Source: Tubiluchus corallicola (lineage: Eukaryota > Animalia > Priapulida). From it: a DNA stretch of 64,000 bases. A model generated the notes under the pieces. That model made no database searches, had not been told where the DNA came from, and was given only the letters and a program-made list of their open reading frames with translations. Positions 7,900-57,545 of the stretch are shown piece by piece. Location: the NCBI GenBank assembly GCA_030141605.1, contig JAQGDQ010000463.1, positions 117,141 to 181,140 on the forward strand, in the 5' to 3' direction. The position numbers and the translations under genes were made by a program. The number at the start of each line of letters is the position of its first letter. Positions within the stretch are counted from its first letter, which is position 1.

Positions 7900-9163
7900 C
7901 TATGAAAAAAAAACAACACAGAACAAAATCTAGTACTGAAGTAGATCACGTAGCCGAAGTTGTCCCAAACAATAGATCAATAACCCGACACATCAGCTAA
8001 ACGTGTCACATGCCCCAAATGTAAAACCGCAGTTAAAGATGATGACAAAGGTGTATCGTGTGAAATATGCGAAAGATGGTTCCACACTTCATGTGTTAGT
8101 GTGAGCGATACATTGTGTGATGTACTGATGAATGGTGAGAATGAAATCCATTGGTACTGTACTTACTGCAACAGTGCAGCCCTACAATTGAAATAGGATA
8201 TCATAAATTTGCAGTCTGAGTTTGGGAAAATTGAAACTGACCAGAACAAGGTAACAGATAAGGTTACAGCAATTGATGAAAAGCTGGAGGCTTTTAGTAA
8301 AAATGGTAACTCAAAAATAAATGCTATAGAAAAGAAAATCTACCATAGAGGTAACCTGAGTGGCAGTGAAGTCGATAACCTATTTGAAGATTTTAATGAA
8401 CGAATGCAAAAAAGGCAGAAAAAGAGTAGCATCATAATACATGGCTTACATCAGTTGCAGACAGTCAGTGGTATGAGCAATGAGTTCAAAATACATTGAA
8501 CATAAATGTCAAAATCATGGAATCAATGCCTCTAAAGGTAGCGCCTATGGTGACATCTGCATCTACAGGACCAGTTAGGATCCGTCTTTCACATCCTGGC
8601 CAAAAATGGCAAGTGTTAAAGGCTGCTAAAGATTTACATAAAAAGCCGGGGTGTAAGAATGTTTATGTAAATCCTGATCTCACTTGGCGTGAACCGAGGA
8701 AAACAAAAAGCTAGTCAGTGAACTAAAGTCAAGAAGGGCCAAAGGAGAAATTGTTAAAATACATAAAAATCAAATAGTCAGCATCGATGAAGACAATAGT
8801 ACGCACTCTCCTAAAGTATATTCTTCTGACCAGCATTCTGCAGTCATACAGCAACAAAATAGTAATCCAACGGCAGCTTTTGCAGAAGGCAACTGTGTAC
8901 CGATTTCTATGTCAGATATAAATGACACAGAATCTGTCATATGTGAACTTGAAGCTCCTGAACAATTACGTGAAGATGATAGTGATGCAGGATCAAATAA
9001 AAAGACGTCACCTAAAATCCGCTTGCTATCTGAACTAAATCAACAGCTACAACAAACTATTACCTGTCCTAGGAATAAAACTTCAACTATCACAGGAATG
9101 ACAGACCAGTATTTAACACCACCGCTAACTCGCTTAAAATCGATAGTTACCAAGAAAAAGTGA
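7900..9163 (+). mobile_element. LINE (CR1/L2 type) ORF1 pseudogene with PHD finger
   Basis: About 8010-8170 reads CPKCKTAVKDDDKGVSCEICERWFHTSCV...HWYCTYC (PHD finger), then a coiled-coil, then PVRIRL..VLKAAKDL..NVYVNPDLT. No ORF2 follows; an (TTAC)n-like tail lies near 9285-9300. Confidence 0.8.
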
Positions 9164-9930: not shown

Positions 9931-11159
9931 GTTACACGCTACAAAATATTAGCAACCAGACGAATGCGTGCATAATAAAGTAGTATTTATTAAACTAATT
10001 AGGAACGTAAACAAAAAAGATCAGGACAGCAAGACAGTTTATCATTATCCAATGAATCATACTTCCAGAGACATGATTCTGCTCACCTCCCTATGCCAGG
10101 ACTCCCTGCTTGCCGCAATGCGCCAAGTGCATTTATTTTTAACTTCTAAGGATCAATGCTGAAGTGTTTAAATCTTTCTGTGCAAAATCTACATATATCA
10201 ATTATATTTAGCCCAACTTCACAGAAAGCTTTGCTTATCTTTCAAGGTCAGGTGTCCCATAATGCAACTGTGTTTCGTCAGTACTATGGCTGTCTGTGGG
10301 TCAATGTGTACTAGTCTGTTGTCGGATGTATACAGTGTCGGACTGCTGTACTGCTTTTCTTCAGCCCATAAAAGATGTCATTACTGGAGGAATTGTTGTT
10401 CACAATGGGAGTACTCAAATGTTAAGTGATCACAAGTGAATTTACCAATTACACTCGGCACGTGTAACACATATTACTAAATTCATTTTCACGGATATTT
10501 AAGCAAGTATTTAATATAATTTATAATAAATCTAAAAGACAGTCTACTTCTTCTTCTGCTTCACTGAATCAAACGTCCAGGGACATGATTCTGCTCACTT
10601 CACGCTGCAATGTCCCAAGTGGATTTGTTTCTAAGGAAGGATCAATGCTGCTAAGCAATAACCGAGATCTTTGATCTACATAAACCATATCTATGGCAAA
10701 GTGTATAAAGAGGAAGTGATGAAAGTTATTGTTTTGCGATAATTTTTGCGATTAGCGGCTATGCTGGCGGCATCAAACGGCGTATCAGTAAAAAATTTTG
10801 AGCGGTGCATTGACAAGAATAATAATAATATTCTTAAGTTCACCAGTAGTGTTGGCATACGTGCAATTTCGATAAGCCAAAAACACTTTTGCGCTTTTAA
10901 TAAAAGAAGAATATTTCAAATAAAAGCAATTATTAGTTTTATAAAACTAAAAACACATCATGAAAACGGAAAAAATTGTAACAATAAAGTTTGTATTATG
11001 TACTTGCAAATGCTTCTTCAGTTTTCTTGTAAGTAAAATTTTGTTGTTTTCCTGAGGAAAGAGGCTAGCTAACTGCGTGATGGGCTGCCTACTATGTAAA
11101 AAAGTAATGCATTTTTTATTGATTTGTTGATTTTTCTCTCCCTCCCTCTCTTAGAGAGG

Positions 11160-11275
11160 AAAGGAGAGAGAGAGAGAGAGAGAAAGAGCGAGGGAGAGGA
11201 AGAGAAACAGAAACAGTGAAAGGGAGGGAAAAAGAAAGAAAGAGAGGGGGAGGGAGAGACACACGCCCGCACACA

Positions 11276-11306
<31 letters not shown>

Positions 11307-11307
11307 G

Positions 11308-11347
<40 letters not shown>
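11160..11347. repeat. Compound (GA)n/(GCAC)n/(CG)n/(CA)n microsatellite inside P1
   Basis: Directly visible; related GA tracts occur in the other P copies (14230-14380, 16680-16790, 19690-19755). Confidence 0.95.
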
Positions 11348-11349
<2 letters not shown>

Positions 11350-12929
11350 TCTTTCTCTTCCTTTTGTTGAAGGTTCTGCCATTTGTTTTTTGGTCATTTT
11401 ACTCCAATGCAAGGTAGCGAATTTGGCACATTAAAAATTGCACCCATTTACGTGCCCTGCAATTAATCTATATAATTACACATATATTATATTGTAGGTT
11501 TGTATATAAATAATTCGCACACGCACGCAAGCACACAACAAGTAATTGCATGATACAGTGCTTCATATATTCAATTCAATTCAATTCAAAACGTGCATTT
11601 ATTTCCATATTCATGATATCACTGAGGCAAGTAAATGTATTTAATTTTGACAATGGAAATACGATGGTGAAAGACCAAGAAGGTCAACTAGTCAAGCCAT
11701 CCTAAAATGGATGTATGTGATTATTGGGATGACACTGTAACTATTTCACTCATGAATAGTAGTGAAATTACATTATTACTATTTTACTTAGCAACTTGAT
11801 CTGTTTAAAATTCTGTAATCAACTTTAAATAACTGAAGGATAAAAATGCAATCAAAGATATCTAAACATACAGGAAAATGATAAACAAAAAGCAATGGTA
11901 AGCAAAAGCCGAATAATGTGGTACAAATGAATAAAAAATGATCAAAATTCAAGTTGTAATATCGTCCATGCATAACTCAATATCAGAAAAACATGCAAAA
12001 TAATAACAATAATACTAAATAAAAAATAATAAAACAAATTAAATAAAATGAAAAGCAAGCTAGCCAAACAGAAATTTAAATAAACTTTCAAATAGGGAAC
12101 TGAATCAAGCTGCAAAATACATGCATTAAAACAATAACTAAACAGTCTGATTAATAAGCAAAACAAAAGAAAAACAAATAAGATCAGCTAAGTTTGAGTC
12201 AAATACCGAAAATTAGATTCTATGAAGCTGAGCCTATATATTTAACTATATAAAATGATTGCCCTCGGCACCTAGGCCTGTATAGAATCAGTTAATTTAA
12301 GCCCATCAATAAATGATATTTATCAAGACTTGTCAGTGGATTTAGCCACAGGTGTTTTATTAGTACGCTTATACAAGTACATTTTTTACACGTAAGCAAA
12401 CTGTATTTAATAAACATTTATTTTGATGTAAGCCTAATTGAATCTTAAAAAATTAGGCTAAATATAAGTAATGTCTGCACATGATATATAAAGGTGGTAT
12501 GACACGCGCGCAGATTCTAATTTATGCGCCAGGTTGGCTTCTCGCCTGAACTCTGTAACTAGATTTTGACCTAGTTAGTTGGTTGTTATAGAGGTGGAAG
12601 TAATGTCGGCTGCTTAGGATGACAGCTCTGATGCTTCGTTCAGTTATTTTTTGTTCACTGATAATAAAAAAGAGGAGTAATGTCATAAATGCATCTCTGC
12701 TTGTTCAACGTAATTTTATAACTAACTCCAACTCATAACAAAGGCCAATGTATGATTACATGCTTTTTAAACATTTTAAAACTTGGAATTAACAAAACAT
12801 GCAGATGCTTAGATTAAGTTTTGTTCTGGAAAATTATTTGCTTTTCTGAAAAAATAGATTTTTTTCTATGAAAAGTATTACACATGAAAGTCAGACCTAA
12901 TATTTCTTCAAGTTATATTTCCTGATAAG

Positions 12930-13179
12930 TGTTATATTAGTACGTATTATGTATTAATGCGTCAGAACGCATTGTAATAAAGTAGTTCGGTAACACGCAT
13001 AATGGTGTACTATGTTTCGTTATTTCTACTAGATAGAAATCCAGGTACACCAAGTAGTGTTTTATGTTGATGTACCTGGATTTCTATCTACATAGTAGAA
13101 ATAACGAAACACAGTACACCATTATGCGTGTTACCGAACTACTTTATTACAATGCGTTCTGACGCATTAATACATAACA
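12930..13179. mobile_element. 250-bp fold-back insertion with TG...CA ends
   Basis: Absent from the homologous site in P2 (15621-15635). Arms of about 105 bp (12947-13051 / 13066-13177); flanked by ATAAG/ACAAG. Confidence 0.8.
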
Positions 13180-13785
13180 ACAAGAACATATTAAATAGGA
13201 ATGTTTTTTAGAAAAAATATTTCTCCAGAAATCGAATACTACATGAGCCAGGTATTTGCAAACTTTCTTTTTGATCAACTTTCTTAACTTCTTTTGTAAA
13301 TAAGCCTATTAATTTTTGTAAGATATGATTATAATAATTTTTATTTTAACTACTAATTATTCTTAATGCCTTATGCTTGCTTTAAATAATATTCAAAAAT
13401 ATAACAGCTGCTATAAATCGCCAAAGAAAGATATAGGCCTTGCTGTCTTTGCTTAGTGTACAAAATATTTAACTTGTAACAAAAGTTACAAAACTGTGTT
13501 ATAATTAACATTTTATTATAATTACCTGGCTGCATCCTTGCGAAATTTAAAAAGATATTTTTATTTGCATTTTTGCAACTCACTGCTGAGCAATTTATGA
13601 GCGCCTGTTAACCGGCCTGGTTTGATGGTCTCATCAATTCATCTGCTACAATACCCACAGCTTGCTCTGTTGCGTACCTGACAACAACAGTCCGTACTGA
13701 ACTGCCGCTAGGGCGACACTAACTGCGTGAACTACTGCGCAGTAGGATTTCCCTACTTTCTGTGGTTTGTATTCTTTGTCTATGG

Positions 13786-16219
13786 CAAAGTGTACAAAGA
13801 AGAAGTGACGAAAATTATTGCTAAGTATTTCATTTTTGCGATTAGTGGCTATGCTGGCGGCATCAGACGGCGAGTCATTAAAATATTTTGAGCGGCTCAT
13901 TGACTGTAATAATAATATTCTTAAGTTCACCAATAATGTTGGCATACGCGCAATTTCGATAAGCCAAAATCACTTTTACGTTTTTAATAAAAGAAGAATA
14001 TCTCAATTAAAAGCAATTATTAGTTAAAAAACTGAAAACATTTAATGAAAAGGAAAAACATTGTAGCAATAAGTTTGTATTATATGTACTTGCAAATACT
14101 TCTTCAGTTTTCTTGTAAGTAAAATTTTATTATTCTTCTTGAAGAAAGAGGCTAGCTGACTGCATGATGGGCTGCCTACTATGTAAAATTGTAATGTTGA
14201 TTTATTGATTTTTCTCTCCCTCCCTCTCTTAGAGAGATAGAGAGGAAGGAAGAGAGAGAGAAAGAGAGAGGAAGAGGAAGAGAGACAGTGAAAGGGGGAA
14301 AGAGAAAGAAAGAGAGAGAGAGAGACAGAGAGATGGGGAGGGAGAGAGACAGAGACAGACAGAGACAGAGAGAGAGAGAGATCCTTCTTTTCCTTTTGTT
14401 GAAGGTTGTGCCATTTGTTTCTTGGTCATTTTACTCCAATGCGAGGTAGCGAATTTGGCACATTAAAAATTGCACCCATTTACCTGCCCTGCAATTAATC
14501 TATATATTGTAGGATTTTAAATAATTTTGATCTGTTTAAAATTCTCTAATCAACTTTAAATAACTGAAGGATGAAAATGCAATCAAAGCTATCTAAACAT
14601 ACAGGAAAATGATAAACAAAAAGCAATGGTAAGCACAAGCCAAATAATGTGGTACAGATGAGTAAAAAATGATCAAAATTCAAGCTGTCATATAGTCCAT
14701 GCATAACTCAATATGAGAAAAACATGCAAAATAATAACAATAATACTAAATAAGAAATAATAAAAAAACAAATTAAATAAAATGAAAAGCAAGCTAGCCA
14801 AACAGAAATTTAAATAAACTTTCAAATAGGGAACTGAATCAAGCTGCAAAATACATGCATTAAAATAATAACTAAAGAGTCTGATTAATAAACGAAACAA
14901 AGTTTGAGTCAAATACCGAAAATTCAATTCTATGAAGCTGAGCCTATACATTTAACTATATAAAATGATTGCCCTTGGCACCTAGGCCTGTATAAAATCA
15001 GTTAATTTTAAGCCTATCAATAAATAATATTATCAAGACTTGTCAGTGGATTTAGCCACAGGTGTTTTATTAGTACGCTTATACAAGTGCATTTTTTACA
15101 CGTAAGCAAACAGTAGTTAATGAACATTTATTTTGATGTAAGCCTAACTAAATCTTAAAAAAATTAGGCTAAATATAAGTAATGTCTGCACATGATATAT
15201 AAAGTGCAGATTCTAATTTATGCGCCAGGTTGGCTTCTCGCCTGAATTCTGTAACTAGATTTTGACCTAGTTAGTTGGTTGTTATAGAGATGGAAGTAGT
15301 GTCGGCTGCTTAGGATGACAGCTCTGATTTTTCGTTCGGTTATTTTTTTTCACTGATAATAAAAAAGAGGTGTAATGTCGTAAATGCATCTCTGCTTGTT
15401 CAACGTAATTTTATAACTAACTCCAACTCATAACAAAGGCCAATGTATGATTATATGCTTTTTAAACATTTTTTAACTTGGAATTAACAAAACATGCAGA
15501 TGCTTAGATTAAGTTTCGTTCTGGAAAATTATTTGCTCTTCTGAAAAAATCGATTATTTTTCTATGAAAGGTATTACACATGAAAGTCAGGCCTAATATT
15601 TCTTCAAGTTAAATTTCCTGATAAGAACATATTAAATAGGAATGTTTTTTTAGAAAAAATATTTCTCCAGAAATCGAATACTACATGAGCCAGGTATTTG
15701 CAAACTTTCTTTTTGATCAACTTTCTTAACTTTTTTTGTAAATAAGCCCATTAATTTTTATGAGATATGATTATAATAATTTTTATTTTAACTACTAATT
15801 GTTCTTAATGCCTTATGCTTGCTTTAAATAATATACAAGAATATAACAGCTGCTATAAATCGTCAAAGAGAGATAGGCCTTGCAGTCTTTGCTTAGTGTA
15901 AAAAATATTTAACTTGTAACAAAAGTTACAAAACTGTGTTATAATTAACATTTTATTATAATTACCTGGCTGCATCCTTGCGAAATCTAAAAAGATATTT
16001 TTATTTGTGTTTTTGCAACTCACTGCTGGGCAATTTATGAACGCCTGTTAACCCGCCTGGTTTTGGTGGTCACATCAATTCATCTGCTACAGTACATACA
16101 GCTTGCGCTCTAGCGTACCTGACAACAACAGTCCCTACTGAACTGCCGCTAGGGCTACACTAGCTGCGCGAACTACTGCGCAGTAGGATTTCCCTACTTT
16201 CTGTGGTTTATATTCTTTG
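13786..16219 (-). mobile_element. Non-autonomous P-superfamily element, copy P2
   Basis: Same termini (CAAAGTGTACAAAG...TATATTCTTTG) and collinear with P1. Confidence 0.8.
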
Positions 16220-16731
16220 CATCAAAGTGTACAAAGAGGAAGTGACGAAAAGCCTATTGTTACGTATTTCGTTTTTGCGATTAGCGGCTATGCTGGCGGC
16301 ATCAGACGGCGAATCAGTAAAAAATTTGGAGCGCCGCATTGACTGTAATAATAATATTATTAAGTTCACCAGTAGTGTTGGCATACGTGCAATTTTGATA
16401 AGCCAAAATCACTTTTGCGTTTTTAATAAAAGAAGTATATCTCAATTAAAAGCAATTATTAGTTTAAAAAAACTGAAAACATTTCATGAAAAGGAACAAA
16501 GATTGTAGCAATAAGTTTGTATTATGTACCTGCAAATGCCTCTTCAGTTTTCTTGTAAGTAAAATTTTATTGTTTTTCCTGAGGATAGAGGCTGGCTGAC
16601 TGCGTGATGGGCTGCCTACTATGTAAAAAAGTAATGCATTTTTCATTGATTTATTGATTTTTCTCTCCCTCCCTCTCTTAGAGAGAAAGAGAAGGATAGA
16701 GTGAGAGAGGGAGAGAAAGAGAGACAGTGAA

Positions 16732-16790
<59 letters not shown>

Positions 16791-17282
16791 TCACGTTAAC
16801 TAATGATTAGTATAAGCCTCTTACCTATTTTGTGCCTATGCATAATAAGGAAAAGCAAATCCTCTTTATCTTGTTCAGCGATTACTGCAAGTCCAAATTG
16901 CAGACCGCTTCAAAAAATCAGCCATTCTTCATCTTTCTCCAAGTAACTTAAAGCATGTCACAAGCTAGACTTGTGCAAAAAATCCGAGCTCTCGGGTCTC
17001 TCCACACCAATAATTTTTTTGTCCATTGTTGACTATTATTTCACTACCTCGTGCATCCAGCAATTTAATGTTATTAAAAGTAAGAGTCGCGGACTGTCTA
17101 AACGTCTCGTCTATTTAAACCCACAAAAATAACCAATTTCTGTTATAGCATTAAATTTCACTGCACCTCAAACTGGTCGGGTAAGTATTAAACAGGTGGG
17201 TAACTTAAAAATGAAAAGGGTTTCTAGTCGAAAATTAGAAGATTGTAGAAGCAAAACAACAGCAGATGAAACAATTAAAAAA

Positions 17283-17816
17283 TTAATGATTTGACAGTTT
17301 AAGGTACTTCCTTGATTTTCGAGGCATACTTTTAAATTCTTGATTGACAAATTTTAAGGTGTAGTAGATACGAACTTTGATGAAGAGTTCCACAAGGTGG
17401 CGCACACTATCGTTGCAGAGTTTCATGTTTTGACACGTGACATTGGACATTATTTTTTCCCTAATAACATGAGACACATTCTGTACAGTACAGTATTGGT
17501 CAAATGTCGCTCTAAATTGATGTTCTGCCTGACTAAACCACGTTATGAAGTGGTCAGTCGGCACACGCAATCGCGTGTCATCACCGTGAAAAGACTTCAG
17601 TGAGATGTATAAGTTTTCATTTTCACGTATCTTGGACTCGTCTTGTATATCCCGCAGAGAGCATAAATCACAGCCACGGATATGTTTTTTATCTAATGCG
17701 TGTATTATATACCCAGCTACATAATGTCTGCCATTACTGTCAAGGAGGCCTAAATTATTTTCGCCTGGTAATGGGTCTACTGATTCAATTTCAAAATCAC
17801 AGTTGTCAAATGTCAC
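17283..17816 (-). pseudogene. P-element/THAP9-like transposase C-terminal fragment
   Basis: YVAGYI...CDLC...LRVPTD...LFIKVRIYYTLKFVN...RKYLKLSNH*, typical of a P-type transposase C-terminus; the catalytic core is deleted. Confidence 0.8.
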
Positions 17817-18056
17817 ATTAGTAAGAGGAGTTGCGGCCTATTAATAAGCCTATTAATTTTCATGAGTTATGAATATAATAATTTTTATTTTAACTAATAA
17901 TTCTAAATAATATTGAAAAATATCACAGCTGCTATAAATTGGCAAAGACAGATGTAGGCCTTGCAGTCTTTGCTTAGTGTACAAAAAATTAATAATATTT
18001 TAATTTGTAACAAAAGTTACAAAACTGTGTTGAAATTAACATTTTAATATAATCAC

Positions 18057-18169
18057 CTGGCGGCATCCTTGGGAAATTTAAAAAAAGATATTCTAGTGTG
18101 TATGTCTGTATTTTTACAATTCACTGCGGCGCAGTAATGAGCCGACCGGCCTGGCTTTGGTGAAGGCAT
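18057..18169 (-). pseudogene. THAP-domain first exon of P3 transposase
   Basis: MPSPKPGRSAHYCAAVNCKNTDIHTRISFFKFPKDAAR (CxxxxC...FFxFP THAP start), followed by a GT donor. Confidence 0.8.
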
Positions 18170-18278
18170 CTCATAAATTCGTCTGCTAAATACCGGTGCG
18201 TGAACAGCTGTGCTGTAGCGTACCTGACAACAACAGAACTGCTGTGCAGTAGGACTTTCCCTACTTTGCTTTGTATAC

Positions 18279-19690
18279 CAAAGTATACACAATAAAGTAG
18301 GGAAAGTCTTTCTGCGCAGTAGTTCGCGCAGTTAGTGTCGCCCTAACGGCTATTCAGTACGGCCTGTTGTTGTCAGGTACGCAACAGCGCAGGCTGTGGG
18401 TACTGTAGCAGATGAATTGATGAGACCATCAAAACCAGCCCGGTTAACAGGTGCTCATAAATTGCTCAGCAGTGAGTTGCAAAAACACAAAAAGATATCT
18501 TTTTAAATTTCGCAAGGATGCAGCCAGGTAATTATAATAAAATGTTAATTATAACACAGTTTTGAAACTTTTGTTACTAGTTAAATATTTTGTACGCTAA
18601 GCAAAGACTGCAAGGCCTACATCTCTCTTTGGCGATTTATAGCAGCTGTTATCTTTTTGAATATTATTTAAAGCAAGCATAAGGCGTTAAGAATAATTTG
18701 TAGTTAAAATAAAAATTATTATAATCATATCTCGTAAAAATTAATAGGCTTATTTACAAAAGAAGTTAAGAAAGTTGATCAAAAGAAAGAATACCTGGCT
18801 CATGTAGTATTCGATTTCTGGAGAAATATTTTTTCTAAAAAACATTTCTATTTCATATGTTCTTATGAGGAAATATAACTTGAAGAAATATTAGGCCTGA
18901 CTTTCATGTGTAATACCTTTCATAGAAAAAAATCGATTTTTTCAGAAGAGCAAATAATTTTCTAGAACATAACTTAATCTAAGCATCTGCATGTTTTGTT
19001 AATTCCAAGTTAAAAAATGTTTAAAAAGCATATAATCATACATTGGCCTTTGTTATAAGTTGGAGTTAGTTATAAAATTACGTTGAACAAGCAGAGATGC
19101 ATTTACGACATTACTCCTCTTTTTTATTATCAGTGAACAAAAAATAACTGAAGGAAACATCAGAGCTGTCATCCTAAGCAGCCGACATAACTTCCACCTC
19201 TATAACAACCAACTAACTATGTCAAAACCTAGTTAAAGAATTCAGGCCAGAAGCATAAATTAGAATCTTCAAGTATAAATCAATTTAAATGAAATTATTC
19301 ATTCATCGCTGCCTATATCAAAATCGTAATTACATATTAAATTTTCCTCATGTTTCCTTGCTGTTCATTACATCTTTTACTTTATTTCAAAATTATTTCA
19401 ATATTTATATCAAAATCGTAATTCCATATTGTGTGTTTCTTATGTTTCCTTGCTATTATTACATCATTTACTTTATTACATCAATTTCATTGAGTCATCT
19501 ACAAAAGCACGCATATCTTTAATAATTTTTTCATTTTCATTTAAGTAAGGTGAGTGTGTTAGTGACCGTATGGTCGTACACTCACCTCACACTACTCAAA
19601 TCATTTTATTTATTGTTTATTTATGTGTACAATATTGTATTTTGATGTGTGAAATAAAATTCATAGTTCATAGTTCCGTCTTTCTTTTAA

Positions 19691-19721
<31 letters not shown>

Positions 19722-20194
19722 CCTCTCTTTCTCTCTAAGAGAGGGAGGGAGAGAGAAATCAATAAATCAATGAAAAATGCATTACTTCTTTACATAGCAG
19801 GCAGCCCGTCACACAGTCAGCTAGCCTCTTTCCTCAGGAAAAACAATAAAAATTTTACTTACAAGAAAACTGAACAGGCATTTGCAAGTACATAATACAA
19901 ACTTATTGCTACAATTTTTTTCCTTTTCATGAAATGTTTTCAGTTTTTTTAAACTAATAATTGCTTTTAATTGAGATATACTTCTTTTATTAAAAACGCA
20001 AAAGTGATTTTGGCTTATCAAAATTGCACGTATGCCAACACTACTGGTGAACTTAATAATATTATTATTACAGTCAATGCGGCGCTCCAAATTTTTTACT
20101 GAATGGCCGTTTGATGCCGCCAGCATAGCCGCTAATAGCAAAAAGGAAATACGTAACAATAGGCCGTTTCGTCACTTCCTCTTTGTACATTTTG
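18279..20194 (+). mobile_element. Non-autonomous P-superfamily element, copy P4 (inverted)
   Basis: CAAAGTATACAC...CTTTGTACATTTTG; perfect 8-bp TSD TTGTATAC at 18271-18278 and 20195-20202; reverse complement of the P1/P2 ends. Confidence 0.85.
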
Positions 20195-20214
20195 TTGTAT
20201 ACTTTGCCTTGCAT

Positions 20215-21225
20215 GCGTGTTGCTAGTGTTATCAACTTTACCCCTTTGCAAAGTTACCCTTTTATTTTCAACTTCTTCGTTTTTCCTTTTTGCGCTCATC
20301 TTTCTAGTTAGAACCTCGTTGCTTTGTGAGTTACAATAAAGTTGTTACCGTAAATTTATTCTTGTCGTCTTGGTGTTTGGGACAGAGCTGGTACATTCTT
20401 TAATTAATGGCGTGGTGGCTGCCGGTGTGACTACGTACTCAGAAAAGCCAGTGGACCTTATAAATGGTTTGTCGAGAGTATACATGCAATCGTCTAAATC
20501 TAACTAAAACCAGTCAGCTTATTCCATAGCTGTAAAGACGTAAGAATTCAAATTTATCAGCGCAATTTTCGAAAGAACTAGTACTAATAATTACCCACGT
20601 GACTGATTAATAAACACCCTCAATTTGTGTTAGAATATGGCCACTACTTGTGCTCCAAAACAGTGGTGTCGGACAAAGCAAGAGACTATTACGTCATTTG
20701 AAGCATGGCGCTAAAACTCTATCGCTAGATCAGAATTTTGCAGATTTTTTAGTTGAAGGTGCGACTAATGCAGACTAAAACAAATGCAGCACCTTTACGA
20801 GGTCTGCAAGATGATGACGAAAATGTTCCCATTGCAAACCGCCGAACAGACGCACAAAAGACCACTCATCTAGATTTAATGCTGGGACAGATTGCCAACT
20901 ATTGTCCGATTATTTCCAGAAATTCCATTGTCAAAAACTCAACGTCATTGACTAGTATTTGGCAAACAGTTAGACAGCATTTCGGATTCCAAACAACAGG
21001 TGGTCATTTTTTGGATTTTAATAATATTCATATGCAGCCAGATGAACGTCCAGAAGATCTTTTCCAGCGTTTAAATAGTTTCATTGAGGATAACCTCTTA
21101 TGCGCTGCCGGTGGTATACAGCACCATGGTGAGAATCCAACTAGTGATGAGGAAATTACACCCACCTTAGAGAACCTAATCATTCTGACTTGGCTTCGAC
21201 TTTTACATCGTGGGCTACCCAGCTT
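20215..21225 (+). mobile_element. LTR retrotransposon 5' end (partial LTR, PBS-like site, gag pseudogene; probably Gypsy)
   Basis: AATAAA at 20335; PBS-like TGGTGGCTGCCGGTG at about 20413; ATG at 20637 gives [44 protein letters not shown]..; cut by the MULE at 21226. Confidence 0.7.
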
Positions 21226-24200
21226 GCGAAATTTTTTTTGCAACTGAGTTCCGGACAGATTATGTCCCTCATTTGCATTAAGCGTCGTCCACGTTGTTCA
21301 GGGGTGCTTCAGAGCAAGATGGCGATCCATGTGTGTGAGTTCTGTGTGAAGTAACCTGACAAATACTCTGAAATTTCATCGTTTGCGGTAAGATTATATT
21401 GCTAACTAATGGCTAAATGTGGTGGCGGTGTAAGACTATAGATCACTCACTTGTCTCTCGAAAATCATACATAAAGTTTGTTTACAAAGAACTTTTGTGC
21501 ACCTCAAAACCGATTTTTTTCGTACAGCGATAAAAGATATGTGTCTACTACTTTTCTCCTGTGTGCGCTTTTCGCCTGTAATTGCATGTATACCTTATCA
21601 TATGTAGCAAACGTAGACGTACATTTGTGTTCTTAAAAATATACAAGGTGTGCCATATAGTGTGTTGTGTGTATAGGCCTAGTAATTTTAATGTTATCAT
21701 TTGTCTTCAAAAAGCATTTAGATCTATGGTCCACCACTTTGAGAAAGTTGGACAAATTTGGTCAACAAAACTATGTAAAAGAGCCTGTTAACAAGTGTGG
21801 CAACAGAATATTTAGTCGTCTTACACCAGACTTTAGAGTAGCCTTATGACTGAGCTATGAGACACAGTACTTTCCAGCTTCTGCCTTTGTAGCCTTGTGA
21901 AACTTTGTATAGCTTGCGCAGTAGAGATGCGCACGTGTGTACCTGTGAGAGATTCTGGATGTGTTGTAACTCGAGAGGATATGTAAATTGTGATTATAGT
22001 CAGGTTCGGCCTGTGTGAGATGCTAGTTATGGAATTTAAAGCTCTTTCTTCAGATCTTTTAAGATTTTTCCTATCACTTTCAGGAAGTTCTACCTGATGA
22101 CTACAGCCATTGTTTGTGTGAGTTAGTGCATAATCCTGACTCGGGCATGGGTTTGATATCATACTTCACCTTCCCATATCAGCAGCAGAAGAGGCAAAAT
22201 TATAGTTAAAGTCATTCCAAGAGAAAAGCTATACTACATATCGAGTTCTGAAGATAGAAAAGTGTTCAGGAGAGAAAATCAAGTTCAAAGTAAGTTTTTA
22301 TATGGTCACGGTCAAAATCAAAGTTTAATCATAAATGCGTGTAAGTAAAAGTTGTCACTCGCCCATCTGTGATTTTATTTGAATTTAGTGCATGAAAGGT
22401 GGCCCTAACCCTGTAGTGTAATGTCATGTGCCGCCATATACCCACACCATACTGCTTATCCTACATTTTCCAGTCTACAACTTCTGCAGACTAAATCTGA
22501 TGCAGGCGCTGATGCTAAACTTCTTTTCTTTGTCTGGCCTTAACCATTGTCAAGATGTACCTTTTCTGAAGAATAGGCAGCAAGTGTTGTTGAAGGGTTA
22601 AAGGGATGCGTCATTTACATGTGTCTTAAACATTCATTTGCCAGGTTGATTACTTCTGCCATCACAGGACCAGAAAGACCAAAGGGCAAGGGCCACATGC
22701 TGGAAAGAAGAATACTAATTGCCCAGCTGGGTTGTAGATTAAAGTCAAGAATACAAGTTTCTTCAACACCGATGGACATAAAAGGAAATGCTGGTAAGTA
22801 ATTCAGGTTTCCTCTACAGCTAGGCAAAGTACATGTATTTACTGAAGAAAATAAATCGAGGTGTGTCCTTGAAAATGGAATGCTCATCTTTTCTTAATAT
22901 TTGCCTATTTTGAAATGTTTGTTGAAGTGAATGTGCCATTCTAATTTTCTCAACAACATTTAGGGAATGATGTTGTATGCATAGAAAGAATATTTTACTC
23001 CTCTTTTTGTAGTTCAACAGGTTTAGCACAGATGGTATTTGGAATTACATTGTAGAATTACATTGTTCTTTATGAATTTCAGTTCAGAGGACCCACATCT
23101 GCCCAATTATCCAATGACAGTCAAGATCAAGTTCCGGCATAACCATCCTATCATGGCATCTGCTGTACTCAAACACCGAGATGTTGCAGAACCAACCAAA
23201 CAAAAGATCTTGCAATTGTTTGAGAATGGCTACACCCCATCGAAGGCACTTGAGTTGCACAAGTTTGACCTTCAAATGCAGGATCCAGAAGAGTATGTGG
23301 TGAAAAGTGGAGACCGCGCCATATGTCCTGATGTACAGTATTGCTATAGGTAAGTAATGTTTTACACTGGGAACACTACTCACCACTGGTATGCCACAAC
23401 CTCGTCCCCAGAGTCGCCAAGTGGGCAAGATATATTGACGGGACTCACTCATCAGACCCTGGAAATAGGATTACCTCATCTCAGGATTCCTGAGATAAGA
23501 CTCTTAAAGTATCCTATTGATAAATACCCTGCTGAAAGTTATACGTAAAAACCTCATTAAAGCTGAACTGATTATAATGAATATTTGATACGTGGTCAAA
23601 AGACTCCTCTGGAGGTCCTAGAGCTGAATCAAGAAATGTGGTGTACCTCAGGGGACTTCACCCGCTACCAGTTCTTATTTTGACAACAGACATTTTTCAA
23701 CTGAAAGTAGGAATTGGACACGATTGCAGCTTGTTCAGTAATGAATGTATCAAAAAAATGTCGCCTTAGGCACTCATGTTTTCAAAGTTCTTTTGTCGTG
23801 TTTCTGACACTTCTTTAGGTTCTGACCTTTTATGTTTTCTGCTTTTTTTAGGTTGTACTATGCTACTTTCAAGAAGGAATATGATGAAGCAAGTGGGGGA
23901 ATGGTTTTCTCGCAGCTTGAAAACAAACTCGCTGAATTAAACGGAAGATTTAGCGAAAGATGTTTCGACATGACTACTACACAAGAAAACCAAGCTGCCA
24001 TTGCCATTGTTACGCCGCTTATGAAGCGTGTACATGACTCCATCAAATCCGCCGCTGAAATCATATTCATAGATTCATCCGGAAATATGGACAGGCAAGG
24101 ATGCCGTGTGTTCCTAATACTTACACATAGCGTAGAAGGGTTAGTACCACTAGGAGTACTGATTACAAAATCTGAAAGTAAGGCAACAATCACAGCGGGC

Positions 24201-25876
24201 CTTCGCTGTTACAATGCCCTACTCAGTCAGGCATCATACTTTGGTTGAGGGTGCCAGGGAGCAGAAGTGATAATGACTGATGACAGTCAAGCAGAACAGC
24301 AGGCAGTGCAGGAGGTTTATCCTAGTTCAACACTCCTGCTATGTGTTTTTCACATTTTACAAGCATTCTGGCGCTTCTTATGGGAGTCCAAGAACGGTGT
24401 AAAAAAAGAGGACCGTCCTAAACTTCTTTGGTTCCTTAAGAAACTGGTCTACTGTGACACAGTTGAGCAACTGGATGTGGCTTATGAGTAAGCTCAGGGA
24501 GACCAGACACTTCAGCGATATGAAAAGGTTCAAAAGCACTTGGATAGTATTATGAGCCGGAAAAAATCATGGGCTTTGTGCTATCGCTCAAACCTTCCTA
24601 TCAGTAGGAACAACACGAATAATTATGCTGAAGCAAGAATGAGAATTTTGAAAGATCAGATCCTACAGCGTACAAAGGCCTACAATGTTGTTCAGTTGGT
24701 TGATTTTGTCATCTCACGGCTTTAGGCATACTACGAGCGAAGATTGCTTGACATTGCCAACAACCGGTTGGACCGTGCTCTTCATTCTCGCTTCCTGGTG
24801 AATGTGAACTCTTGCTCAAAAATTGACCACAGTCTCATCAGAAATGTTGCTATTAGTGTGTATGAAGTGCCCAGTGAGAAGGACCCAAGTGTGATGTGCT
24901 CAGTCGATATGGATGTTGGAATGTGCTCTTGCAAGATTGGAAATACAGGTAAATACTTTTTGTAAATACAGGGTGGTCCAAAAAGATGTTAACACTTTTA
25001 TCTTGGTAGCAATTGAAGAAAATAACAGATATGGAAATTCTTTTCTTGTCAACTTAAAGTTTTATGTGCAAGTGCAATTTTGTGATGATTCACTTTAATG
25101 ATATTCACATTACTCTTTTCGTTACAGGAGGTCCCTGCAAGCACCAATTTCTGGTGGTCAAGAAGTTTGGTTTGTCGACCTGGAACTTCATACCAGTACA
25201 CGATCCAGCGACGCATTGCTTGTTGTACAAGGTCGCCACAGGAGGAGATGCGACCAAATCTCCCAGACAGTTGGTTTCAGTCTCTGCAGCCTTCTACCAC
25301 CACTTCCCCAACCATGCTCACTCCCACATTCCAGGTTCATGATGCAGCAGGTCATGACATGGCAGTGCAGCAAGACAAGCAAGATGAGGGGAATAGCAGT
25401 GCAGAACAGTCATGTGCACAGGGAAGCAATCAAGTGGTTGACAAGGAAAAGGTTGATCCTGTCATCAAGGAACTTGATGGTGCATTTGAAATCCTGAAAG
25501 GAAGGTACATTTCGAACAAAGAGTTTCTGGCCAAACCAATACGAACATTTGTCAAGCAATCACAGAAATTGTCCTCAGACTCTGCCTTGGCATCTGCCCT
25601 TCATTGCTTTGGGAAGTATGCTGGAGTTGCTGAAGCTGTTGGAAACAAGAAAAAAAGAGAGTGCTTGTTGGTGCAAAGTCCATTGGTGTCCAACCTACTG
25701 CAAGGGCACGCATGAAAATGGTTGGTGGAGGCCGCAATAGGATTGGATCTGGGCGACCATGCCATACAAATGTCCAGTCATCTTCTGTCACCCCATTTTC
25801 GTCGCAGGTAATGCCAAAATATAAAGCACCACACAGACTCTCTGCATGTGTAGAATGTAACCAAACACTTGGCAAG
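21226..25876 (+). mobile_element. Mutator-like element copy M1, defective and 3'-truncated
   Basis: Left TIR GCGAAATTTTTTTTGCAACTGAGTTCCGGACAG; same exons as M2 from ATG 21319 but with stops (21352, 24246, 24489, 24723) and frameshifts. No right TIR or second copy of ACCCAGCTT was found. Confidence 0.9.
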
Positions 25877-27541
25877 AAATTTTTTTTCTGCCATATATAA
25901 AAGTATTATCTCTAAGTCGATCGCATGATACTTCAGTGCTGTAGTATACGTTATATTAATATTAATTTGGTAGTATACATCATGTTCATTGAAATATATG
26001 CTAGCCAATTTTTTGATCTGTATAGTGGTTAGTCAGTAATTTACCGGTGGTAGCGTGAAAGTTGGAGAATCTTTCCTGTTTGTTCAATGTGGTGCAATTC
26101 TGTTTATTTTATGTGGTTAAATACTTAGGAACCTGTGGTTTAACAAAGTCATGTCAAATCATTGCTATTTATGAATCTCATTACATTACAGTTTCACGTG
26201 TAAATAGCACATTCCAGTTTATTGTATTAATCCCATTTTCAGTTTTTCTGAACCTTCTATTAAAGAAACTGACATTATTCACCACCAGATGGTGCTTAGA
26301 TATGGTAGTGATGCTTTTTTAGCATTCTCACTATTTATGCTTGATAATTTATGCAAATTCAAACAGTTGTTTTAATCGGCACTTGTATAATATTTACATA
26401 CCACTGAACAAAAAAGTATGTAGTTTTGTATGTAACATGTATTCCACTTGAAGTAACGTTGTTTATTTCAAGGTTTAACTATAATTATGCTTAATAATGA
26501 AGATTTCTTGCTGTTATTAAATATATGTGATCATATCATAGCATCTCAGTTTTAAACCCAAACAACCAGGCTATTAAAAAAATGTGTGACAGAATGTAAA
26601 GATGTATATGATAGGACAGTAGTGTAACTATTCTTTTGGGGCCCACTTTTCAAAATAATCTAGTAGACCCCTATCATTTAAGGGTAAAAATTTTATGGCC
26701 TATGGCTTTTATGCACTACAGTTTTTAGAATCAATTGTAAAACTGTCACAGCTTACTTTTAAATTGTTTTTCTTCATGATTTTATGCTGGCAGAAGTGTC
26801 GTAAAATGATTAAACGAAATTATGTTGGTTCTTCGTGACCGACGTCCTCTGCATAGTCCAGGGCCTTAGGTCATCCTGTGTGCATTTATCGAAAAATTTT
26901 GCCTACATACATTTTTATGTTATTTGGAGGTCACATTATGTCATTTAAAATATGTGTTCGGAATTTTTCCACTATATTTAGTATATCTACACAAAATTGT
27001 GATTTTGTCAGAAAAGGGAGCACATTGTGAATAACACCTTAGAATACACATGGTTGAATACAATACAGGGGCCTTATTTACTGGCAATCAGCAATGCATT
27101 GCATTTATTACGAGTATCAGTAGCAACAAACAGATGAATTAGTAACAATAGTGTTTGTTTGTATGTTACGTCAACCTATTGTTTGCTTAACCTGCTATAT
27201 ATCTTAACACTTACTCTTAATTTTGTATTTTTTTGAACTATTACCTGTTACTATGAACCATGATTTGAAACAAAATTCTTTTTGTTTGTCGTTATCAGTA
27301 AACTATTAAAGCTTCCTTAGAGTTTGATAATTTTAAGTTTTTTGATAGTGCAAAGGAAACAGGTATGTTATTCACGACAAGTTTGCATGATTATTATCTC
27401 TGCAAACTTATTGTCTTGTAGCATTCTTAATTTAAAGGAAAACATTGATGAGTTTACATTGTACCCCTCTTTTTGTTGATATATATGAGGGGGACTTGAA
27501 CGTTTCATCTGACTCACAACAAATGTAACTGTTTGTTTTGT

Positions 27542-29923: not shown

Positions 29924-30475
29924 CCCATAGTTTTTAGTCTATAACAGAAACTAGTGGCTGTACTTTTTTAAGTGCTTACCCATAAGCCTGTTTCAGCTAA
30001 AGTCGATTTTGATTACCCATAGTTTTTTAGTCTATAATAGAAAATAATGGCTGTACTTTTTCAAGTACTTACCCGTAAGCATGTTTCAGCTAAAGGCGAT
30101 TTTGATTACCCATAGTTTTTTAGTCTACAGCAGAAACTAATGGCGTACTTTTTTAAGTGCTTACCCGTAAGTCTGTTTCAGCTAAAGGCGATTTTGATTA
30201 CCCATAGTTTTTTAGTCTATAACAGAAACTAGTGGCTGTACTTTTTTAAGTGCTTACCCATAAGCCTGTTTCAGCTAAAGTCGATTTTGATTACCCATAG
30301 TTTTTTTAGTCTATAACAGAAACTAGTAGCTGTACTTTTTTAAGTGCTTACCCGTAAGCATGTTTCAGCTAAAGGCGATTTTGATTACCCATAGTTTTTT
30401 AGTCTATAACAGAAACTAGTGCTGTACTTTTTTAAGTTCTTACCCATAAGCCTGTTTCAGCAAAGCGCGATTTTC
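29924..30475. repeat. Tandem repeat, 6 units of about 93 bp, each containing an exon end and splice donor
   Basis: Units start at 29924, 30016, 30109, 30201, 30294 and 30388; the last unit is continuous with the peroxidase exon. Confidence 0.95.
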
Positions 30476-32095: not shown

Positions 32096-35000
32096 CATGT
32101 GTGCATGTGTGCGTGTGCACATGTGCGTGTGCGCACGTGTGTGTAACACACACAAATACAACTACGTACACAAATGTATGTACATTTTAATCGTAAATCA
32201 TTATTGAGTTATAGCAAAAATAATTTGATTTTATAAAAAACAATAAAATTTTATAATCAAATAATCAAAACAAAACGTTGCAAAAAGGCGTCTTGAAAAA
32301 ACTATAAACGAAGATTTTGGTTTGAAATCTAAACTCTCCAGCCTAGGTTATCTTAATTTTGTATCTTACCTGTTTTTATGCATATATGAATGTCGAATGT
32401 CTTAAAAGTCTATAATACGTAGCATTCTGTGCTAGAGAGCACAAGCATTACACCCCATTTTAGACGGTATACTTATAAATTATGTGGTTAGATCACATAG
32501 ATGATTGGTATTTGTTTGTTTGTTTGTATTGTTGTCAGTGTTGTTTGTTTACTATCTGATAATTACGTAAAAAGCAATTGACGGCATAGTTAATAATTGT
32601 TTCTCAATTTATCACAGTTTAAAACACGAGTAGGTACAATGACCCTTCATATAATGATGTATCGCTTTTGGCTTTTCGTACTCGCTTTTTCTGGTTTTGT
32701 TTAATCAAGAAAATCAAGAAAAAAGTTTATATAAAACAGAAGAACAAAGAAATAAAGAATGTTATTTCAATATTAATTCATTATTAAGATGTTGTTTATT
32801 AGCATAGACGATCATATCATTTTCAATGCTATAAATAAATAAAAATATTAATAAAAAAGCCAGAACAAATAATAACAATCTTTACAATTTTCTTTACAAA
32901 AGACAATTTTAATTTTCACTCTTGTGCTTGTGTAATGACATAATTTATTTTGTCTTGATTAGTAGTGACATAATTGTACCATTGTTTGTTTTGATTGATT
33001 GATTGCCCGATCTATAGCGTACCTTCTTGTCATTGAGAAAACTGGCTGGTATGAACGCCCATAACAAAGATGACAAAATTGTACAGGTAAATTCAATTTA
33101 ATGTTTTATTACCTATCAAATCAGTGGTTGCTTCTGTTGAAGATATGAACAAGTCGGTCATCCGTCCGGCGTAATGAAGGATTGTTAGACCATCGATAAT
33201 AAAGTCACGTGTTAAACCAGACCCGGTACCTACAAACCAGTAGGACCCATTAGTACAATTCAATTCAGTTTATTTACCCAAATACCGTCGTAGTACATGG
33301 GCAATATACATGATAGTAACATAATAGTAACGTAATGAAATTCTATATTGTTAAAAAAACTTGCACATCATTGAACGGTAAACTACACATTCAAAAATTG
33401 ATAATATAATCAGTGTTTCCACAACTGTGAGCAATAGTGCTGTACAATAAAATGAATTTACAATTAAAAATACAAGAGAGGCTGTAATTAATTACATAAG
33501 TACATGGATTTAAAACTTTTCATTTCATTTCTAACATTTAACACATTTACATTATTTAAAAGATAGTTTTTGTAAAATACTAAACATATGAAATTGAAAT
33601 TGGCACTTTATGTGTGTTTTGTGTTGGTGACTTGAGTTTTTTGTATGCAGTGGGTTTTAGTTTGTTGATATGATGTAAATGTACGAGAGGTTTTCATCTG
33701 CCACTATGACGTAAATGTACGAGAGGTTTTCATCTTCCACTATGATGTAAATGTACGAGAGGTTTTCATCTGCCACTATGATGTAAACGTACGAGAGGTT
33801 TTCACCTGCCGTTATGATGTAAATGTACGAGAGGTTTTCATCTGCCATTATGATGTAAATGTACGAGAGGTTTTCATCTGCCACTATGATGTAAATGTAC
33901 GAGAGGTTTTCATCTGCCACTATGATGTAAATGTACGAGAGGTTTTCATCTGCCACTATGATGTAAATGTACGAGAGGTTTTCATCTGCCACTATGATGT
34001 AAATGTACGAGAGGTTTCATCTGCCATTATGATGTAAATGTACGAGAGGTTTCATCTGCCATTATGATGTAAATGTACGAGAGGTTTTCATCTGCCACTA
34101 TGATGTAAATGTACGAGAGGTTTTCATCTGCCACTATGATGTAAATGTACGAGAGGTTTTCATCTGCCACTATGATGTAAATGTACGAGAGGTTTTCATC
34201 TGCCACTAACGACAGACTACTGAGTGAACGTTGATGACAACAATAAGGTGTGATTTCACATTATTTAATTTGAAGGCTAGTTCAGTATTTTTCAGTTCAT
34301 TTTTGAATTTTTTATGTGACTGCAGATTTTACGTTAACATTTTTTAGATTTTAAAAAATACTAAAATACAAATACGGAAATACATAGGAAATACAACTTA
34401 CAATTATACAAAAATATAAATTTGGTCAAAATACAACAAGATATTCTAGTGGGATGGTACATTATTTGCAAAAGTTTGCACTAAATTACTGCAATGCAAA
34501 ACTGGTATCACCATAAATACATAAATACCAACATATATTTCATTTATATAAAACTCATTGCATAAATTTATATTGTCTTTACTTGATGTGTCTTCATATG
34601 CTGATGATTAATAGATATATTATTATTCTGTATGTACATACGTATTGGCATTGTATATAATATTCTAATCTAATCTAATCTAGTCTAGTCTAGTCTAGTC
34701 TAGTCTAGTCTAGTCTAGTCTGGTCTAGTCTAGTCTAGTCTAGTCTAGTCTAGTCTAGTCTAGCCTAGTCTAATCTAATCTAATCTAATCTAAACTTACT
34801 TTTCAAAAGATCTTTTGGACAAATTTGCAATAGGACCAACATGAAGCTCACGCAGGTATTGTCTATTGTCATAACTAGGTATGGTATGTTGTCAAAACTA
34901 GGTATTGTCTTATGTCATTATTAGGTATGGTCTATTGTCATAACAGGGTATGGTCTATTGTCATAACTGGACATTGTCTATTGTCATAACTGGGCATTGT

Positions 35001-43617: not shown

Positions 43618-43708
43618 CTCATTTGCATTAACCAATCAGCAGATGATGCCCCTCATTTGCATTAACCAATCAGCAGATTACATTCGTCATTTGCATTAAC
43701 CAATCAGC
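43618..43708 (+). promoter_or_regulatory. Three 34-bp-spaced octamer+CCAAT modules upstream of the transposase ATG
   Basis: ATTTGCATTAACCAATCAGC at 43621, 43655 and 43689; ATG at 43744. Confidence 0.6.
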
Positions 43709-43743
43709 GTCGTTCACGTTGTTCAGGAGCGCTTCAGAGCAAG

Positions 43744-48301: not shown

Positions 48302-48388
48302 AACAAGACTGATTGCAGCATTCTATTTTGGCTGCTACTTACAAGAAGCTTTTTTTGTGATTTATATTTTGTGCATAACGGGCAGCGT

Positions 48389-48495
48389 ACGAAAAAAAAT
48401 CGGTTTTGAGGTTCCTTCACACAGAACTCACACACGTGGATCGCCATCTTGCTCTGATATTGTACTGCAAATGAGGGACATAATTTGTCCGGAAC
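48389..48495 (-). repeat. Internal inverted copy of the MULE left end (clipped TIR plus start of exon 1)
   Basis: Reverse complement reads GTTCCGGACAAATTATGTCCCTCATTTGCA..CAGAGCAAGATGGCGATCCACGTGTGTGAGTTCTG..CCTCAAAACCGATTTTTTTTCGTAC. Confidence 0.9.
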
Positions 48496-51400: not shown

Positions 51401-52494
51401 TTATTATTATAGAAAGGGTGAGTGAGAGAGAGAAAGGGGGAGAAAGAAAGAAAAGACAGAATGAAAAACGAACCCCGTGACAAAGTAGAAAACACATGAT
51501 ACTGTATTATTATAGCTGTGTAATTACAGCTGGTTGTTGCTTAATACTTTAGGTACTGAATGACTGTACTACTACAGGCTTACTATACAGGTATACGGAG
51601 CATAAGAAACTGCATGGAATACTCTTGTACACAAATTTTACAAGGAACCTGAACGTGGACAACGACGCCAAGTTTTTGTTTGTTTGAAATGGACCGGTCC
51701 GAAGCCATTCCCACTATAAAAGCCTATAGCACGCGAATGTTATCTTCAATTTACTACCATTATCACAACGTTATCAGTTCATGACCAAATGCCAACACAT
51801 TTGAGTAAACAAGTGCAACCTGAGTAAACGTGAGTACACTTTATATCTTATTACTTACAGCGAAGAAAATAATTTTGGTAGGTGCAATGTGGCAGACGCA
51901 AGCGCTTAATTCTGATATGCAGCTTTGGGTTATTGAGTTTATATTATACGTTGGAAAAAAAGATAAATATACTTTATATCATTGTTATCTTGGTTTATCC
52001 TTTGATTTTGGTGATTTTTCCAACTTTTTTTGCTTTGAAGCTTTCAGCGTTTTGATGATATTTTAAGTTTAACACATGTATATTTAAAACAAGGTGCTGA
52101 AGTTCAATAGCGTGGGTTATACTGCTAATGCAGGTAACTATTTTTCTTTACTCTGTGTCTAAGCGTTCACATTGAATCAGTTGGCCAAAATAGATGCCGC
52201 AGTTTTGATAACGATAGTACAAAAAGAAAAAAACGAAATCGCTTGAAATCACCATGCTGATGTTGCGAACGATTATGTGTAAACATAAGAAATTTTAGGT
52301 CGTTCTCTTAGAATTTTTCACAGAAGTTTTAAATTAGCAATTCAAAAATGTAAATGCCAAAAAGTATTTCGTTTGTCGCTATTGTTAAAATTTACAGCAC
52401 GTCCTATACCTGTCCGCTATGTTCAAAACAAGCTAGACAAAAAAGCTTTCTCGGTTTCTTTTGATACTGAAGCTACAGTGCCCTTTCATCAACA

Positions 52495-52541
<47 letters not shown>

Positions 52542-57483: not shown

Positions 57484-57545
<62 letters not shown>

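What the first reader, a model, noticed from the sequence alone, without database searches (positions are those of the whole stretch)
10690..20214. Self-targeting P/THAP transposon stack: copies insert at or inside another copy's terminal repeat
Seen: four elements share CAAAG(T/A).TA(C/T)A termini with almost no host DNA between them. P4 sits inside P3's TIR with a perfect 8-bp TSD (TTGTATAC), leaving P3's last TTTG at 20203-20206. P3's TSD (CTTTGCAT/CCTTGCAT) overlaps the last 5 nt of P2. P1's 7-bp TSD (TCTATGG) directly abuts P2's other end. Known: P-superfamily elements make 7-8 bp TSDs, and Drosophila P can insert near P ends. Inference: three of three readable insertions hit an element terminus, suggesting end-homing (transposase bound at existing TIRs, or the TIR mimicking the target), which would build arrays in harmless sites.
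Basis: partly seen in the sequence, partly recalled or inferred. Interest (0 to 1): 0.85.

Follow-up and report, generated by a model that had tools for sequence, protein, structure and literature searches.

The report
Four P transposons stacked end-to-end
Four different, non-coding copies of one cut-and-paste transposon family sit end to end in an animal genome, likely because an existing copy's end is an occasional landing hotspot as already known for the fruit-fly P element, while most other copies whose ends could be seen have unrelated neighbours.

Summary
The stack is real: four non-autonomous P-superfamily elements, 4-11% apart at their A-ends, meet with 7, 3 and 0 bp between them. P3 keeps a THAP start and a P-transposase C-terminus. 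The P1/P2 junction is matched by contigs of public runs. P4's 8-bp and P1's 7-bp TSDs are perfect. Genome-wide, end-homing is not the rule. In run X1, 31 contigs in the rows shown end at a family terminus and run into unrelated DNA. The only head-to-tail bridge listed is this locus, and one other end-into-end joint appears (run X2). Both mechanisms are published for Drosophila P: double insertion leaving a TSD between tandem copies (PMC5932611), and a target-like TIR with a self-insertion hotspot, 'safe-haven' idea included (PMC2577343). The scan holds no look-alike of this DNA but has analogous end-nesting notes for other families. A tidy non-insect example of a known habit.

The parts
10690..10696 (.). 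Left copy of P1's 7-bp TSD (TCTATGG)
10697..13778 (-). P1, non-autonomous P-superfamily element, 3082 bp; TIR about 14 bp, imperfect; strand inferred from homology to P3's THAP end
13779..13785 (.). Right copy of the 7-bp TSD, the only DNA between P1 and P2 (double-insertion signature); junction matched by run contigs
   Evidence: (X1 record 2, X3 record 18)
13786..16219 (-). P2, non-autonomous, 2434 bp; has no matching TSD on its right
16215..16222 (.). CTTTGCAT: last 5 bp of P2 plus CAT; putative left copy of P3's TSD (7 of 8 match)
16223..18278 (-). P3 main part, internally deleted element with transposase remnants
17283..17837 (-). 184-aa frame homologous to the C-terminus of P-element transposases
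18053..18166 (-). Start of a THAP domain (first 28 of 87 profile positions; E 4e-4, 21.5 bits, below the curated cut-off of 23.9)
18271..18278 (.). Left copy of P4's 8-bp TSD (TTGTATAC) = positions 5-12 of P3's TIR
18279..20194 (+). P4, non-autonomous, 1916 bp, inverted relative to P1-P3, nested in P3's TIR
20195..20202 (.). Right copy of P4's 8-bp TSD
20203..20206 (-). Displaced last 4 bp (TTTG) of P3
20207..20214 (.). CCTTGCAT, right copy of P3's putative TSD

Best explanation
This is a stack of four different non-autonomous P-superfamily transposon copies that likely built up at one insertion hotspot by the known side habits of P transposases: re-insertion at an already occupied target and occasional insertion into a terminal repeat. 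Step by step: P1 and P2 share one 7-bp target, a double insertion (layout shown, mechanism inferred). P4 inserted, inverted, into positions 5-12 of P3's TIR with a perfect 8-bp TSD (shown). That TIR tip reads CAAAGT, which fits the AANGT half-site of the Galileo target motif in register (shown; that this drew the insertion is inferred). The P2/P3 junction needs an extra event because P2 lost its right flank. Either P2's flank was first replaced by deletion or ectopic recombination and P3 then inserted across P2's last 5 bp, or P3 sat in host DNA and a break at P2's end was rejoined in P3's left TSD through the TTG microhomology (unresolved). All copies would have been moved in trans by an autonomous element elsewhere (inferred). 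Family-wide, such end-landings are a small minority.
For: Junction sequences and TSDs. Copies are 88.7-96.2% identical at A-ends and 81-94% at B-ends with different interiors. P identity: the 184-aa frame has 215 relatives at E<=0.001. 12 of 12 long relatives that I scanned carry the TNP-like RNaseH and GTP-binding domains, and 9 of 12 also carry Tnp_P_element. A profile of 20 relatives plus the frame hits only the Drosophila P transposase 6p5a/6pe2, E 4.6e-85 and 1.6e-5. The P1/P2 junction laid on the P2/P3 junction should give 7 mismatches and 6 gaps, as X1 record 2 and X3 record 18 do, at depth 16 and 7, close to other single contigs. Solitary ends, in the rows shown at exact termini: X1 18+5 A-end and 5+3 B-end contigs, X2 13 and 6+3, X4 (second study) 3 and 3, median loose length 119-255. 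Their agreement of 0.43-0.62 is near that of random host DNA. No 'other letter' row at 16211-16237 in any run; a further head-to-tail dimer would hide without such a row with p 0.26-0.33, so 3 or more are unlikely (p<=0.04). Precedent: PMC5932611 (passages), PMC2577343 (section 12), PMC4168063 (passages).
Against: Three end contacts at one locus are more than a rare side reaction easily gives, unless the site is a strong hotspot, which I could not show. One further end-into-end joint exists elsewhere (an A-end joined, inverted, to bp 33 of another A-end; X2 only, side 31), so end-proximal events are far above random. Only 1 of the 3 targets fits the AANGT half-site, so target mimicry explains P4 alone. 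The census is from short-read contigs with cut tables (one search showed 24 of 115 loose-end rows, 12 of 47 indel rows and 32 of 748 pieces). It would miss short bridging contigs, P4-type B-ends and 12-bp TIR remnants. The depth split allows from below 0 to about 18 single-copy units of bridging. X2's flank agreement (0.47) is slightly above the random range (0.39-0.45).
Confidence: 0.62

Rival explanations
1. True end-homing: the transposase, bound to resident ends through its THAP domain, tethers incoming copies so that the family preferentially builds arrays at its own termini.
For: Three end contacts at one locus, two of them not explained by the AANGT half-site; one more end-proximal joint elsewhere; random expectation 1e-5 to 1e-4 per insertion.
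Against: 31 (X1), 22 (X2) and 6 (X4) terminus contigs in the rows shown run into unrelated DNA, against 1 own bridge and 1 other joint. A 30% share of P4-like TIR nesting among 18 flanks would give 4 or fewer of 12 matches with p 0.007; 2 of 12 were seen. P2 has no TSD.
Confidence: 0.14
2. No end effect at the P2/P3 junction and only site preference at the others: a neutral, transposon-filled region gathered copies, and a deletion from a break at P2's end, repaired by microhomology in P3's left TSD, fused two separate insertions.
For: P2 lacks a TSD, the flanks do not join, and the one TSD mismatch lies in the P2-derived bases. A 4-of-5 match by chance has p 0.017, which microhomology repair would select for. 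The right flank leads into a Gypsy-type gag remnant cut by a MULE copy.
Against: It needs the repair to end 3 bp from P3's terminus, itself an end-associated event, and P4 sits squarely in a TIR. It overlaps the best explanation and differs only in denying any attraction to ends.
Confidence: 0.19
3. Tandem duplication or assembly artefact.
For: Three copies lie head to tail; the window holds other long, near-identical duplications.
Against: Units differ in length, interior and by 4-11% at A-ends; all three junctions differ; two perfect TSDs; the P1/P2 junction is matched by run contigs, although that sample may be the source of the assembly.
Confidence: 0.05

Closest known systems
Drosophila P element: tandem dimers by double insertion (McGurk and Barbash 2018, PMC5932611; passages read)
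   Same: Head-to-tail copies with intact ends separated by exactly one TSD, as at P1/P2; head-to-tail P tandems were seen in 55 of 85 fly strains.
   Different: 7-bp rather than 8-bp spacer; copies here are diverged deletion derivatives; P2's outer TSD is lost; a stack of four with a nested inverted copy.
Drosophila P element: TIR holds a target motif and a self-insertion hotspot at bp 19-26 (Linheiro and Bergman 2008, PMC2577343, section 12 read; it cites Eggleston's 1990 thesis, not seen)
   Same: Insertion into the element's own TIR; the paper also states the 'safe-haven' regeneration idea.
   Different: The hit here is at TIR positions 5-12 of a roughly 14-bp TIR; the termini are CAAAG, not CATGA; non-insect host.
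Galileo of Drosophila willistoni (Goncalves et al. 2014, PMC4168063; passages read)
   Same: P superfamily; 7-bp TSDs with some of 8 bp (3 copies); many non-autonomous copies; target motif with AANGT/ACNTT halves, the left half matching this family's TIR tip; 28 of 191 copies have other elements at their termini.
   Different: Galileo has long foldback TIRs; the elements at its termini are not stated to be Galileo in the passages read; this family's own target motif was not determined.
Zebrafish Pdre2 (PMC10983969; passages read)
   Same: Short 13-bp TIRs starting CA, 8-bp TSD, internally deleted copies.
   Different: No stacking described in the passages read.

Membership tests
P superfamily DNA transposon | P-type transposase (THAP, RNase H fold with GTP-binding insertion, C-terminal domain) | tested here: met
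   Only remnants in P3: THAP start E 4e-4, under the cut-off; the C-terminal frame's relatives are P transposases and their profile hits 6p5a. The frame alone has no Pfam or PDB hit.
P superfamily DNA transposon | Short TIRs beginning CA | tested here: met
   All 8 ends begin CAAA; imperfect TIR of about 14 bp.
P superfamily DNA transposon | 7-8 bp TSD | tested here: met
   P1 7/7, P4 8/8, P3 7/8 (ambiguous), P2 none.
P superfamily DNA transposon | Catalytic DDE core / autonomous copy | not testable with these tools
   Deleted in P3; no genome held.
Double-insertion tandem dimer (McGurk and Barbash) | One TSD between intact head-to-tail ends | tested here: met
   P1/P2 junction.
Double-insertion tandem dimer (McGurk and Barbash) | The same TSD on both outer sides of the dimer | tested here: not met
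   Present left of P1, absent right of P2.
Dedicated self- or end-targeting element | Most insertions lie at family ends | tested here: not met
   Visible termini mostly have unrelated flanks; the census is partial.
Dedicated self- or end-targeting element | Fixed position relative to the resident end | tested here: not met
   Positions differ: directly outside (P1), overlapping the last 5 bp (P3), TIR 5-12 (P4), about bp 33 (X2 joint).
TIR mimics the target (Linheiro and Bergman) | The family's genomic target motif resembles the TIR | tested here: inconclusive
   Only flank consensus lines were available: 6, 7, 8 and 9 of 11 matches for n = 18, 13, 6 and 3; post-hoc p 0.40, 0.14, 0.04 and 0.007; weakest where n is largest, and the sets overlap.

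The most novel reading that the evidence does not exclude
This CAAAG-ended P family has TIR tips that carry its own target half-site, and its transposase is drawn to resident ends, so once a site holds a dimer it snowballs into multi-copy stacks of unlike copies: a sequence-plus-tethering homing route to transposon arrays in a non-insect animal, active at a minority of loci.
Probability: 0.17. Interest if true: 0.5.

Novelty: new member of a known kind. Interest (0 to 1): 0.22.

Why it matters
Modestly. It shows that the tandem and self-insertion habits described for Drosophila P also occur in a distant animal's P family, with four unlike copies at one site. A family of roughly a hundred or more copies would let someone measure end-landing rates from one long-read assembly. 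If end-tethering were shown, it would offer a route from dispersed DNA transposons to arrays and a handle on targeting THAP transposases; the present data do not show that.

Tried and rejected
No whole genome was held, so no direct census was possible. A 28-letter terminus pattern found 0 matches in metagenome contigs. The P3 C-terminal frame found nothing in the word-indexed search of longer proteins (0 of 125 candidates), in Pfam or in PDB by itself; only the full HMMER search placed it. 80 loci of distant P relatives (the best 80 of 406): 0 of 80 gave a TIR pair with a TSD, 6 of 80 gave candidate pairs only at contig edges, and none resembled the stack's DNA, so stacking in other species was not testable. 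The likeness of the flank consensus to the TIR start was not accepted as evidence. The depth split at the junction was not decisive. X1 record 3 / X2 record 11, an A-end preceded by TGCAT, was considered as an allele of P3 before the join to P2. It was rejected because it differs from P3 by 5 letters and 2 gaps in 83 and does not extend to the preceding T. Paper searches listed no report of this family or of an obligate end-homing P element, but most subscription papers are outside the library; 'CANRG' as the P terminus consensus is recalled and was not found in a transposon paper. No supplements were opened.
Full report
Observation. Reading the region and scanning both strands for the terminus gave eight ends, all between 10697 and 20206 and none elsewhere in the window. 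They define P1 10697-13778, P2 13786-16219, P3 16223-18278 plus 20203-20206, and P4 18279-20194 in the opposite orientation. I call the end with the GAGGAAGTGACG motif the A-end and the other the B-end. The spacers are TCTATGG (P1/P2) and CAT (P2/P3), with none between P3 and P4. TCTATGG also precedes P1, and TTGTATAC flanks P4 on both sides, leaving P3's last four bases outside. CTTTGCAT/CCTTGCAT flank P3 with one mismatch. With P3 and P4 removed, P2 is flanked by TCTATGG and CATGCGTG. The host DNA left of P1 has a degenerate upstream paralogue, and the DNA right of the stack does not match that paralogue's continuation (score 22, random median 24).

Identity. P3's B-end carries the start of a THAP domain on the minus strand (E 4e-4, below the curated cut-off). 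Its interior carries a 184-aa frame with no Pfam or PDB hit of its own. A full HMMER search gave 215 relatives at E<=0.001. I scanned 12 of the long ones: 12 of 12 have the TNP-like RNaseH and GTP-binding domains and 9 of 12 have Tnp_P_element. A profile of 20 relatives plus the frame matched only the Drosophila P transposase (6p5a chains A and B). P3 is thus an internally deleted P element, and P1, P2 and P4 are non-coding relatives that share about 500 bp at each end. The copies are 88.7-96.2% identical at the A-end and 81-94% at the B-end, with different lengths and interiors. That excludes simple tandem duplication.

Is the junction real? Four public runs from at most two samples hold 33-41% of the stretch's words; all are contigs. 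On 16140-16300, X1 record 2 and X3 record 18 bridge a B-end to an A-end with 7 other letters and 6 gaps. That is the count expected if the P1/P2 junction is laid on the P2/P3 junction. Their depth (16 and 7) is close to that of other single contigs, so this junction is not amplified. The sample may be the source of the assembly, so this guards against mis-assembly but is not independent biology.

Genome-wide test. 745 contigs were laid. Summed depth at the termini equals about 90-110 single-copy units of A-end and 35-46 of P1/P2-type B-end in X1 and X2. This is a rough figure: the tool warns that summed depth is no copy number, and the single-copy depth was my assumption from the pieces listed. 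In the loose-end rows shown (24 of 115), contigs that stop at the exact terminus, or one base beyond, and run on into other DNA number 31 in X1, 22 in X2 and 6 in X4, with median loose lengths of 119-255. Their consensus agreement (0.43-0.62) is within or just above the range for random host DNA; X2's 0.47 exceeds 0.45. Against these stand one bridge, this locus itself, and one joint: an A-end joined in inverted orientation to about bp 33 of another A-end, in X2 only. The joint table and the other-letter table were printed whole, and the latter has no row at 16211-16237. A further head-to-tail dimer with a random 7-8 bp spacer would escape that table with p 0.26-0.33, so three or more are unlikely (p<=0.04). 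P4-like nesting in the TIR would pull the flank consensus towards the TIR: at a 30% share of 18 flanks, 4 or fewer of 12 matches has p 0.007, and 2 of 12 were seen. One search, on a longer stretch, gave the same picture. The limits are real: short bridging contigs, P4-type B-ends and small-gap junctions could sit in rows not shown (35 of 47 indel rows, 716 of 748 pieces), and the depth split allows up to about 18 units of bridging. I conclude that end contact is far above random but is a minority of insertions.

Mechanism. P1/P2 has the form that McGurk and Barbash attribute to double insertion at one target; they found head-to-tail P tandems in 55 of 85 fly strains, mostly with an 8-nt spacer (PMC5932611, passages). 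P4 in P3's TIR parallels the P-element hotspot at its own bp 19-26. Linheiro and Bergman explain that hotspot by a target motif inside the TIR, and they also propose that insertions regenerate a 'safe-haven' (PMC2577343, section 12). Read outward-in, P3's TIR starts CAAA followed by the duplicated bases, which places AANGT at the same register as the left half of the Galileo target motif (PMC4168063, passages). That half-site occurs at 0.7% of host positions per strand, and only 1 of the 3 targets here has it. Whether this family uses that motif is unknown: the flank consensus resembles the TIR start at 6-9 of 11 positions, but least where most flanks are pooled. The P2/P3 junction needs a loss of P2's right flank on any reading. 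P3 may then have inserted across P2's tip. Alternatively, a break at P2's end was rejoined in P3's left TSD by microhomology, which would explain both the missing TSD and the position of the mismatch. Bacterial IS911/IS30 join ends across 2-3 bp spacers (recalled; also named in scan note e1-9967537), but nothing here shows that chemistry for a P element.

Context. The stack lies among transposon remains: a Gypsy-type gag begins about 430 bp to the right (593 relatives) and is cut at 21256 by a MULE copy duplicated at 43674. A neutral neighbourhood would let such a stack persist (inference). Earlier scan notes call the host a priapulid-like marine animal; I did not test that.

Verdict. Real, well-formed, and explained by published P-element behaviour. 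It is a new example in a distant animal, with one junction unresolved. Family-level end-homing is not supported by the ends that could be seen. Interest 0.22.

Noticed in passing
window 12930-13181: About 250-bp palindromic insert inside P1 (absent from P2 and P4), ends TGT...ACA with a short imperfect flanking repeat; looks like a MITE, possibly Ginger-type (label recalled).
   Followed up: partly
window 46039-54522 and 55531-64000: 8.5-kb inverted repeat, 97% identical, with a 1-kb spacer; it runs off the window's end. Could be a foldback rearrangement or an alternative-transposition product.
   Followed up: no
window 21256-25877 and 43674-48284: 4.6-kb direct duplication (95%) carrying a MULE/SWIM transposase (Pfam MULE E 7e-8 for 46133-47374); a third partial copy lies inverted at 61756-64000; the first copy cuts the gag remnant.
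   Followed up: partly
window 20637-21247: Gag remnant of a Gypsy-type LTR retrotransposon, in several frames, 62-74% identical to mollusc and cnidarian relatives; the stack's right flank is probably its 5' region.
   Followed up: partly
window 18279-20194: P4 looks mosaic: its A-end is closest to P3 (96%), its B-end body is closest to P1/P2 (91-93%), but its terminal 25 bp are P3-like; P4-type B termini recur in run contigs.
   Followed up: partly
window 29924-30474, 33581-34262, 34631-34800, 34808-35724, 39126-39586: Minisatellite arrays with periods of about 93, 36, 5, 23 and 66 bp.
   Followed up: no
window 10030-10205 and 10535-10695: Degenerate direct repeat in the host DNA just left of the stack; P1's target lies at the end of the second copy.
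   Followed up: partly
window 7990-9160: Decayed frames that by eye resemble a PHD-finger LINE ORF1 (recalled label; no Pfam hit for 8693-9160).
   Followed up: no
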